From the NCBI RefSeq assembly GCF_028641065.1, contig NC_073410.1, positions 17,856,001-17,920,000 on the forward strand: a stretch of 64,000 nucleotides of DNA, read 5' to 3'. Under the pieces are notes generated by a model. It did no database searches. It was not told the DNA's origin and was given only the letters and a program-made list of their open reading frames with translations. Made by a program: the position numbers and the translations under genes. Positions 36,630 through 38,865 of this stretch are shown in pieces (position 1 is the first letter of the stretch; every line of letters begins with the position of its first letter). The DNA is from Leucoraja erinacea (Eukaryota).

Positions 36630-36657
36630 TGTTTTGAGGCAGCCTTTGATCGCTGTG
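36630..36657 (-). other. 12-bp spacer RSS in front of the damaged J
   Basis: + strand TGTTTTGAG-12 nt-CGCTGTG; shares TGATCGCTGTG with the RSS of the intact J at 39767. Confidence 0.75.
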
Positions 36658-36703
36658 GAACTACAATGAAGCAACCTCGGCGACGTGCCGAAGCTGTGTT
36701 ATA
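36658..36703 (+). pseudogene. TRBJ: J-beta-like segment with small deletions (pseudogene or sequencing error)
   Basis: G AAC TAC AAT GAA GCA ACC T-C GGC GAC G-T GCC GAAG CTG TGTT ATA then GTGAGT; reconstructs to about NYNEAT(F)GDG.KL.VI plus donor; lies in indel-rich sequence. Confidence 0.75.
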
Positions 36704-38709
36704 GTGAGTATATTACAGCTGAAGCGGGGACAATTTACAAGTTTTGTGTTCGGGCGGAGGTGGAGGGGAGCCGGCGGAGTTTCAAGTAACTTCTTGTTAG
36801 TGGGAGAGAGAGAGAGAGCGAGGAAAGAAGAGGAGAGAGATNNNNNNNNNNNNNNNNNNNNNNNNNNNNNNNNNNNNNNNNNNNNNNNNNNNNNNNNNNN
36901 NNNNNNNNNNNNNNNNNNNNNNNNNNNNNNNNNNNNNNNNNTGTCTTATGAAGTTGATCGCTGCTCTCGGGTCCAGAGGATTTACGCAGAACGATTCCTG
37001 GATTCGCAGGGTCCGGTGGCGCATAGAAGATTCGAGAGTTTGCCAGGACACGAGAGGCCGGAGTTACAGGTAGAGGTTACGCCGCCCATGACTTTCTTCC
37101 TTGCGTGCCAGATCCTGGGGGATAGATAATATATAGGTTATAGACATGCAATGCACTTCTTTCCACTTAAGACTGATAGATTAGAGAACGCGAGGACATA
37201 GGTTTTTAAATGATAGGACGGTTTAACTGGAACCTGGTCGGGGCAACTTTTTCATACAGTATTGAGTGGCGTACGGAACGGAGCTTGCTGTAGGATTGGG
37301 GTGAGGCAGGTACAATCCTGCACATTAACAGATCTTGGACATTATATTGGATAGGTGAAGTATATAGTGACTGTGTCCAACGCTGTGAGGTGGGACATAT
37401 TGGTAAGATGGGATGCATTTGTTGGTTTGGGCCTCGCATGGTGCGCCAAAGGCACTTTTTCCCGCTACATGTCCCATAGATGGATAGATGTTGTGATATT
37501 GGGTGCAGTTTTCTGTGGGACGGATTTTTTACGTCTGGAAAGTACAGACGAAATTACGAGGACATTGAACTTGCCACGAAGCGAGGATAATGAGCTACAG
37601 AGTGTGCAGGATAGGAACGTGTTCGTTGTTATTTACTTTATGCATATATCTGGGAAACGCCCTCGTCGTCCCCCGTGTCGACACGGTGACGGATCATGCC
37701 CGTCCCCAGCAATATCCTCACACAATGAACACCCTTTGCAACTATCTTGAACGATTCTAACATAACCTACCACCCTGTATGTCTGTTGGAGGTGGGTGGA
37801 ATGAACCACGTATCCCCCGAGAAACACACTTAATGGGGCAATGTGTTGGCATGAGCAAATTGAGCTACAGTGCTGTACAACCTATGACTCCCTAGTTTGT
37901 GCACATGGTGTTGATATTGCATTTTACAAGTATTGTTTTGGTCACCCTGCGTGCGAGATCAATATTGTAGCGAGAAGTTTCCATGACTCGATGGGCCCTT
38001 GGGCCTACATAGGATGCTCGGAATGTCAAGACTTATCCTTTGGAGCGCAGCATTATTACGGTGATCTGGTTTATGTTGTTAGGTTGCCTCTAACGATAAC
38101 TGGGAATTAGACAGCTAGGCAAAGACAATATGCGCAGGAGATAGGTCTTATCGTCCCTTCGAAGTTAGCCCGCCACGATTATGAGGGAAAATTCACGAGG
38201 TTGAGAGCAATGCCCAGGGCGTGTTTGTATGGTGCTCAACAATGTATTTTACGGGGTATGGCATTGTAGTTGTGTCGGGCGAATACAGCGAAGCTGCTTG
38301 TCAGAAATAGCAGCAGAATCATAATCGATTGGGGAGGAGGGCTGAGGAATGGTTGATGGAGTTCAATGCAGAGAAGTGTGATGTGTTGCATTTTAGGAAT
38401 TCAAACCATGGCAGGAGCTATACAGTGAATGGTAGGGTTCCATGGAGTGTTGTAGAACAGAGGAATCTAGGCGCACTGGTATAACGACCCTTGAAAGTCT
38501 TGTCACAGGTAGATAGGGGGTGTTGTAAAGTAGAGGTATCTAGAAATGCAGGCACATGTTTAAATATAAGTGGTATCTGGAGTAGACAGGGAGTGTTTTA
38601 GAGTATCTGGATCCAGGAGCGCGTGTCCATAGTTCCCTTAATGTTGGGTCAAGGGTAGACAGTGAGTGCTGTGGAGCAAAGAGTAAAGTGCCGTAGATGA
38701 ATTCCAAAT

Positions 38710-38779
38710 AACCACACACCTTCAGAATCTCCTCCGTTGGTTGCGTCGTCCAATGGGCGGGGTTCTGTGGGTGATGTCA
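38710..38779 (+). promoter_or_regulatory. Putative D-beta germline promoter
   Basis: AACCACA (RUNX, 38710-38716), CCAAT (38750-38754), GGGCGGGG (38755-38762) and GGTGATGTCA (decamer/CRE-like, 38770-38779), immediately 5' of the D 12-RSS. Confidence 0.6.
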
Positions 38780-38785
38780 CGGTTA

Positions 38786-38813
38786 TTTAATTGTATGATG
38801 ATCTATCACCGTG
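38786..38813 (-). other. 5' 12-RSS of D-beta
   Basis: + strand TTTAATTGT-12 nt-CACCGTG. Confidence 0.88.
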
Positions 38814-38826
38814 GGAACAGCGGGGG
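38814..38826 (+). CDS. TRBD: TCR beta diversity segment GGAACAGCGGGGG
   Basis: 13 nt flanked by 12-RSS and 23-RSS; resembles the conserved vertebrate D-beta GGGACAGGGGGC; open in all three frames. Confidence 0.95.
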
Positions 38827-38865
38827 CACTGTGTTATAAACTGGCTTAGAACCCGTACAAAAACC
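38827..38865 (+). other. 3' 23-RSS of D-beta
   Basis: CACTGTG, 23 nt, ACAAAAACC (perfect nonamer). Confidence 0.95.

What the first reader, a model, noticed from the sequence alone, without database searches (positions are those of the whole stretch)
36630..38865. A J segment upstream of the only visible D
Seen: a 12-RSS, an NYNEA..G..KL.VI-like sequence and a GTGAGT donor lie 2.1 kb 5' of D-beta, with no C exon between this J and the D. Known: an upstream J cannot be joined to a downstream D by deletion, whereas V(23) to J(12) satisfies the 12/23 rule but is suppressed in mammals (beyond-12/23 restriction). Inference: either a hidden upstream D (D-J-D-J-J-C sharing one C, permitting D-D joins), a D-less direct V-J route, or a relic cluster. 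The lesions are small deletions in a region where known LINE sequence is equally indel-ridden, so the J may be intact in vivo.
Basis: partly seen in the sequence, partly recalled or inferred. Interest (0 to 1): 0.7.

Follow-up and report, generated by a model that had tools for sequence, protein, structure and literature searches.

The report
Skate TCR-beta: four Ds, one C
The lone-looking J piece in this skate's T-cell receptor beta gene is likely an ordinary working piece whose upstream partners sit on an unplaced scrap of the same assembly; read together, the pieces likely form an unusual layout, four D pieces mixed among the J pieces in front of a single constant gene, which would let D pieces join each other.

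Summary
The J at 36629-36709 is real (37.2 bits; best of 50 shuffles 8.1). It lies 2.2 kb upstream of a D, with no C exon between. It is probably not an orphan.

Unplaced 58-kb contig C80 holds TRB V genes, then D1-J(ψ?)-J-J-J(garbled)-D2-J-D3, with no gap and no C exon. The assembly has four such Ds and one TRBC. Five collinear anchors pair C80's J-D2-J unit with the window's J-D-J unit, so the J-before-D order probably belongs to a tandem duplication.

A contig from a DNA run, probably of the same sample, restores the J's F and GxGT. The lesions shown are therefore assembly errors.

Best reading (0.72): V...(D-Jn)x4-C, D-J cassettes duplicated without their C. The J would join upstream Ds by ordinary deletion, and D-D joins are allowed by the 12/23 rule.

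Not shown: C80's physical place, any transcript using this J, any D-D join. Bamboo shark has two separate D-J7-C cassettes; a skink has 3 D and 1 C (order not seen). New variant of a known kind; interest 0.42.

The parts
36629..36657 (+). RSS of the queried J (heptamer 36651-36657, 13-bp spacer, weak nonamer)
   Evidence: spacer identical to that of paralogue C80:47586
36658..36703 (+). TRBJ coding segment, garbled in the assembly, likely intact in vivo
   Evidence: a DNA-run contig shows one inserted letter and two substitutions that restore F and GxGT
36704..36709 (+). GTGAGT splice donor of the J
36842..36941 (.). 100-N stretch between J and D (assembly gap or mask, cannot be told apart); may hide further Js
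   Evidence: the paralogous interval on C80 is 4265 bp and holds two more J-like segments
38750..38776 (+). CCAAT / GC-box / CRE-like motif block upstream of D; the CAAT-GC-box part recurs before D2 and D3 on C80; predicted D-linked germline promoter
   Evidence: motif at 38751, C80:51788, C80:57710; motif names recalled, function inferred
38786..38865 (+). TRBD (D4): 5' 12-RSS 38786-38813, 13-nt D 38814-38826 open in three frames, 3' 23-RSS 38827-38865
39739..39821 (+). TRBJ, intact (FGSGT), 12-RSS and donor; paralogue of C80:53316
43594..43680 (+). TRBJ, intact (FGKGT), canonical heptamer, weak nonamer; single copy in the assembly
50950..51300 (+). TRBC exon 1 (Ig C1-set); the only TRBC found in the assembly
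59522..59542 (+). TRBC exon 2 (hinge)
   Evidence: (spliced contig)
62723..62829 (+). TRBC transmembrane exon
6284..6615 (+). TRBV, nearest V in the window, with RSS-like sequence behind it
2881..3126 (-). TRBV, inverted

Best explanation
The segment is a TCR-beta J, likely intact, in a skate TRB locus that the assembly likely split between this chromosome and unplaced contig C80; joined up, the locus likely reads V genes, D1-Js, D2-J, D3, ..., this J, D4-J-J, one C. Shown: C80 itself carries D1-J(ψ?)-J-J-J(garbled)-D2-J-D3 in gap-free sequence with no C exon, and the assembly has four such Ds and one TRBC. Inferred: D-J cassettes were duplicated in tandem without their C. The queried J would take D1, D2 or D3 by ordinary deletional D(23)-J(12) joining and then a V, and the transcript would splice over the downstream D4 and Js to the single C. 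Predicted consequences: J position limits which Ds it can use (never D4 by deletion); a downstream D-J pair can rescue a failed upstream join; D(23)-D(12) joins are allowed by the 12/23 rule.
For: (1) Best outside match of the J is an intact J on C80 (82% over 112 bp, E 5e-19). (2) C80 (58,241 bp, no N) has 9 V-like segments, 3 Ds flanked by RSSs and 3 intact Js, plus 2 degenerate J-like segments. (3) No C exon on C80 by tblastn with 4 elasmobranch C queries or by blastn. (4) One TRBC in the assembly: the next of 48 matches is 41% identical. One C-exon contig at 85% likeness or better in DNA run X1, depth 29.7, similar to 27.3 for a contig whose 7 differences match C80's J. (5) C80 is not a second haplotype of the window: its longest matches look like dispersed repeats, and D flanks are about 80% identical in all three pairs. 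(6) Collinear anchors C80 47.55/51.5/53.2/54.6/55.5 kb to window 36.62/38.5/39.7/40.9/41.4 kb keep J-D-J order across the 100-N stretch. (7) X1's contig over the J shows one inserted letter behind 36676 and substitutions at 36686 and 36688, each matching the paralogue. Worked out by hand, these alone restore FGxGT and the splice phase of the other Js.
Against: No sequence bridges C80 and the window: its ends show no overlap with the window beyond repeats and D-flank paralogy, so its place and the cassette order are inferred. D3's own downstream J is not in the assembly. The X1 contig over the J has depth 6.6 against 27-30 elsewhere, unexplained (drop-out beside CT/GA tracts, or a one-haplotype copy). 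X1 may be the source sample, so it is not independent. Seven indel rows were not shown, so three further single-base gaps predicted from the paralogue are unconfirmed. Run X5 (organism B, about 91% read) gave only one contig of this J family, with 5 differences, which I could not assign. A second C less than 85% identical could lie in unassembled sequence. The J's nonamer is weak.
Confidence: 0.72

Rival explanations
1. A second, diverged TRBC lies in unassembled sequence between D3 and D4 (for example in the 100-N stretch). The queried J would then close an ordinary upstream D-J-C block, and the locus would be two blocks, the first still holding three Ds.
For: Bamboo shark has two TRBC (PMC10322711 supplement file 16). 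There are N stretches upstream and just downstream of the J. A relic TM-like exon at 51788-51898 shows that C-gene pieces have been duplicated here.
Against: One C-exon contig at 85% likeness or better in run X1, at single-copy depth. No second TRBC among 48 genome matches. The paralogous J-to-D2 interval on C80 has no C.
Confidence: 0.09
2. The J truly lies upstream of every D, because C80 belongs inside the 100-N stretch. It would then be a displaced J among V genes, usable only by direct V(23)-J(12) joining, or unused.
For: C80's place is unknown. 100 N is a size typical of scaffolding joins (recalled). No D-like element was found in window 7132-36630 on either strand.
Against: Collinearity of J, D, next J and two downstream anchors with C80's J-D2-J unit would be a coincidence. 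The J would have to splice across more than 70 kb holding nine V segments and three Ds.
Confidence: 0.08
3. The J is a pseudogene or a one-haplotype relic of the duplication and is rarely or never used, though the multi-D layout stands.
For: Low contig depth, 6.6 against 27-30. Weak nonamer with a 13-bp spacer. Another J on C80 (43930) is degenerate, so relics exist here.
Against: The corrections shown restore FGxGT and phase. The intact paralogue has an equally weak RSS.
Confidence: 0.08
4. C80 and the window are divergent haplotypes or a chimeric assembly, so the D count is inflated.
For: Both pieces have badly polished GA/CT-rich tracts.
Against: D flanks differ by about 20% in all three pairs, including D2 versus D3 on the same contig. 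The C exon differs by 1 letter in 334 between organisms A and B. C80's J paralogue appears at full depth in X1.
Confidence: 0.03

Closest known systems
Mammalian TRB tandem D-J-C clusters (human, mouse; PMC10464911 passages, PMC10513440 abstract)
   Same: V(23), D(12/23), J(12) signals. J1 segments lie upstream of D2 and use D1. D1-D2 joins and productive V-D1-D2-J2 chains are documented in humans.
   Different: Each mammalian cluster has its own C. Here at least three successive Ds have no C between them (shown on C80), and four likely share one C.
Bamboo shark Chiloscyllium punctatum TRB (PMC10322711 supplement file 16)
   Same: 13-nt D, first J about 0.9 kb downstream of D, V genes in both orientations.
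   Different: Two opposed cassettes, each one D, seven Js and one C; no D among the Js.
Skink Tiliqua rugosa TRB (PMC11754216 Results part 1 and Table S6)
   Same: Several Ds (3) and six Js with one TRBC; the V-proximal D carries the conserved GGGACAGGGGG core, as D1 does here.
   Different: The order of Ds and Js is in a figure I could not see, so the skink may be interleaved (a true precedent) or D-D-D-J6. An unrelated lineage.
Human IGH: IGHJ1P upstream of IGHD7-27 (recalled, no call)
   Same: A J lies 5' of a D within a one-array D-J region that has more Ds further upstream.
   Different: Different locus with 12/12 D signals; that J is a pseudogene; D-D joins break the 12/23 rule there.

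Membership tests
TRB (T-cell receptor beta) locus | C domain most similar to TCR-beta C | tested here: met
   Pfam C1-set; 50% identical to nurse shark T-cell receptor beta chain, E 1e-23; all 9 other hits are shark proteins, 3 named TCR beta and the rest with automatic light-chain-like or uncharacterised names
TRB (T-cell receptor beta) locus | D flanked by 5' 12-RSS and 3' 23-RSS, G-rich, open in three frames | tested here: met
   D1's 3' spacer reads 24 bp; 5' nonamers of D2-D4 have 3-4 mismatches
TRB (T-cell receptor beta) locus | V with 23-RSS, J with 12-RSS and FGxG | tested here: met
   (some V spacers read 24, some J spacers 13)
TRB (T-cell receptor beta) locus | Conserved flanking genes (MOXD2, trypsins, EPHB5/6) | not tested
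   flanks fetched but not searched for these genes
Functional TRBJ (queried segment) | FGxG motif and open frame in phase with the donor | tested here: met
   not met in the assembly; met after the three differences in run X1's single contig, frame worked out by hand; 7 indel rows not shown
Functional TRBJ (queried segment) | Usable 12-RSS | tested here: inconclusive
   heptamer 1 mismatch, nonamer 4 mismatches, 13-bp spacer
Functional TRBJ (queried segment) | Found in rearranged transcripts | tested here: inconclusive
   the RNA runs laid gave no usable test
Canonical tandem D-J-C cluster layout (one D and one C per cluster) | A C gene between successive Ds | tested here: not met
   no C exon between D1, D2 and D3 in gap-free C80; D3-to-D4 interval not assembled
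D-less V-J route (beyond-12/23 restriction absent) | CDR3s with this J and no D core | not testable with these tools
   no repertoire data

The most novel reading that the evidence does not exclude
Skates rebuilt TCR-beta as a single-C array of at least four promoter-bearing D-J cassettes. V-D-D-J (even triple-D) joins and serial D-J replacement would be a routine source of long, diverse CDR3s, offsetting a small J set: a TCR-delta-like diversification strategy inside an MHC-restricted chain.
Probability: 0.2. Interest if true: 0.7.

Novelty: new variant of a known kind. Interest (0 to 1): 0.42.

Why it matters
The orphan-J paradox most likely dissolves into an assembly split, so there is no evidence here for loss of the beyond-12/23 restriction. 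What remains is a TRB layout that differs from the one-D-one-C cassette seen in mammals, amphibians, teleosts and the bamboo shark. It makes three things directly testable from one skate thymus repertoire: whether D-J use follows position, how often D-D joins occur without an intervening C, and whether the weak 5' signals of D2-D4 steer V joining. It also flags that this reference genome omits part of TRB from the chromosome, so repertoire mapping against it would miss three Ds, at least three Js and several Vs.

Tried and rejected
RNA test: no RNA holder was listed for the C exon. Two single-cell RNA runs (about 1% and 3% read) laid 0 reads on the C exon, and X23 laid none on the J, only on the adjacent microsatellite, so these are no test. 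RNA-like run X3 gave a spliced C contig but only 6 letters upstream of the aligned part, too few to name a J.

Hidden D in window 7132-36630: none by RSS scan, profile or motif on either strand. The N stretches could not be examined.

Overlap of C80's ends with the window: only repeats and D-flank paralogy (the script stopped before the gap-flank table printed). C80 as a haplotype copy: rejected.

The J-to-D spacing match (2155 bp here, 2145 bp for C80's garbled J to D2) was considered and not used: the interval holds an N stretch, the sequences do not align, and that J-like remnant scores only 7.4 bits, within the shuffle range.

Protein searches returned no batoid TRB transcript to read J use from.

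Literature: nine searches listed no description of the skate TRB D-J layout. I saw only the top 1-20 rows of each; most subscription papers are not held, and two shark TCR papers sought by recalled DOI were not held. Earlier scan notes held nothing on this locus.

Full report
1. Observation. A nucleotide profile built from five intact Js, without this one, scores it 37.2 bits (E 3.6e-10); the best score in 50 block-shuffled windows was 8.1. Two details need adding. The nonamer is weak, with its core at a 13-bp spacer. A 100-N stretch at 36842-36941 lies between the J and the D. Downstream lie two intact Js (39767, 43622) and the C gene (exons at 50950, 59522, 62723 and one past the window). 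The C domain is a C1-set domain, 50% identical to nurse shark TCR-beta; the source label of its own predicted protein names the little skate.

2. The missing Ds. The J's best match outside the window is an intact J on unplaced contig C80, 82% over 112 bp including flanks. The window's D has two paralogues on C80. I fetched all 58,241 bp of C80; it has no N. It carries nine V-like segments (seven with a YFCA end and RSS, two truncated), then D1 (37973-38055, with the conserved GGGACAGGGGG core), a degenerate J (43930, 19.4 bits), intact Js at 47586 and 48917, a garbled J-like remnant at 49706 (7.4 bits, within chance by profile), D2 (51851), an intact J (53316) and D3 (57773). The contig ends 456 bp after D3. 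No C exon is on C80 by tblastn with four elasmobranch C queries or by blastn. A pattern designed from these Ds finds 4 matches in 2.19 Gb and 0 in the reversed control; this is circular for the four but finds no fifth. The J pattern finds 5, all on C34 or C80. Of 48 genome matches to the C exon, only the window's exceeds 41% identity. In DNA run X1 the C exon is one contig at depth 29.7.

3. Is C80 another haplotype? Unlikely. Its longest matches to 204 kb of C34 look like dispersed repeats, hitting many places in both orientations. The three 13-nt D units differ at 7, 12 and 12 of 80 positions, with flanks about 80% identical in every pair. The C exon differs at 1 of 334 letters between organisms A and B. 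C80's J-D2-J unit and the window's J-D-J unit share five collinear anchors (47.55, 51.5, 53.2, 54.6, 55.5 kb against 36.62, 38.5, 39.7, 40.9, 41.4 kb). This points to tandem duplication and supports the J-before-D order across the N stretch. On C80 the matching J-to-D interval is 4265 bp and holds two more J-like segments, so the 100-N stretch may hide Js. Nothing bridges C80 and the window, so the order of the two pieces is inferred from V-D-J-C logic.

4. Are the lesions real? Against the paralogue, the J lacks four single letters, each from a doubled-letter run, and has two substitutions in GxGT. In run X1 (probably the source sample, so not independent) one 534-bp contig spans the J. It shows a letter inserted behind 36676 and substitutions at 36686 and 36688, each equal to the paralogue's letter. 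By hand, these three changes restore FGxGT and the same splice phase as the other Js. The three remaining predicted gaps add up to one codon, and seven indel rows were not displayed, so they are unconfirmed. The same contig differs from the assembly by 12 letters and 15 gaps over 269 bp, and the adjacent LINE has 21 gap openings in 494 bp: this stretch of the assembly is poorly polished. Against this reading: the contig's depth is 6.6 against 27-30 for two other single-copy pieces, and run X5 of organism B gave only one contig of this J family, which I could not assign. RNA runs gave no test of use. X3 did show C exon 1 spliced to exons 2 and 3.

5. Mechanism. Shown: interleaved D and J without C on C80; 12/23 geometry; one C in the assembly; three lesions corrected. 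From established V(D)J rules: a J joins only upstream Ds by deletion, and a D's 3' 23-RSS can pair with the next D's 5' 12-RSS. Inferred: the queried J uses D1-D3; transcripts splice from the joined J to the single C; downstream D-J pairs allow a second attempt; D-D joins occur at some rate. The 5' nonamers of D2-D4 have 3-4 mismatches against 1 for D1, which may favour D1 for V joining and limit D-D joins. D2-D4 share an upstream CAAT/GC-box motif, predicted to be a germline promoter.

6. Comparison. PMC10322711 (passages; supplement file 16, part 1 of 5 plus all 22 TRBD and 24 TRBC rows): bamboo shark has two opposed D-J7-C cassettes and bichir five D-J-C cassettes. None of the 11 loci lists several Ds within a few kb before one C. 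Trout and lungfish list two same-strand Ds without a C between them, but 2.2 Mb and 0.8 Mb apart, and I did not see their J rows. PMC10464911, PMC12529555 and PMC12698447 (passages) describe D-J-C units in mammals, trout, axolotl and newt. PMC11754216 (Results part 1, passages, Table S6) reports 3 D, 6 J and 1 C in a skink; the map is a figure I could not see, so it may be a precedent. PMC10513440 (abstract) shows D1-D2 joins and V-D1-D2-J2 chains in humans. PMC13433984 and PMC5931798 (passages) added nothing on layout. Nine searches listed no account of the skate layout, within the limits given under Tried and rejected.

7. Verdict. The orphan J is most likely an effect of a split, poorly polished assembly, and there is no evidence for a D-less route. 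The underlying locus is a TRB with an unusual layout: at least three, likely four, Ds interleaved with Js before one C (0.72). New variant of a known kind, interest 0.42; up to 0.7 if D-D joining proves routine.

Noticed in passing
window 51788-51898 (+): A degenerate copy of the TRBC transmembrane exon (62% identical, two residues shorter, no obvious acceptor) 0.5 kb behind C exon 1; the spliced contig in run X3 skips it. Likely a relic of a partial C duplication.
   Followed up: partly
G000:C80:1-58241 (L020-L025): Unplaced contig with nine V-like segments in both orientations, three Ds and up to five Js; likely the missing middle of the TRB locus.
   Followed up: yes
G000:C80:43930-43986 (L024:3930-3986): Degenerate J with a broken RSS and disrupted FGxG, 5.9 kb behind D1; likely a pseudogene (19.4 bits).
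   Followed up: partly
window 6341-51300: The public gene model LOC129712847 (P0002) fuses the germline V at 6341, intergenic pieces, the J at 39767 and the C into one 398-aa protein; likely an annotation artefact.
   Followed up: partly
window 12400-15000: Long tandem array of roughly 45-50-bp units between the last V and the N stretches; unit length judged by eye.
   Followed up: no
window 16667-20680: About 4 kb of almost pure C/T sequence, opposite in strand bias to the GA-rich tracts behind the Js; may be a poorly polished or inverted piece.
   Followed up: no
window 36942-38300: No blastn match to any other part of the 262 kb examined, unlike neighbouring repeats; may be low-quality consensus beside the N stretch.
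   Followed up: partly
G000:C34:17765759-17862577: TRBV genes upstream lie in both orientations; several of those nearest the window are inverted and would have to rearrange by inversion.
   Followed up: no
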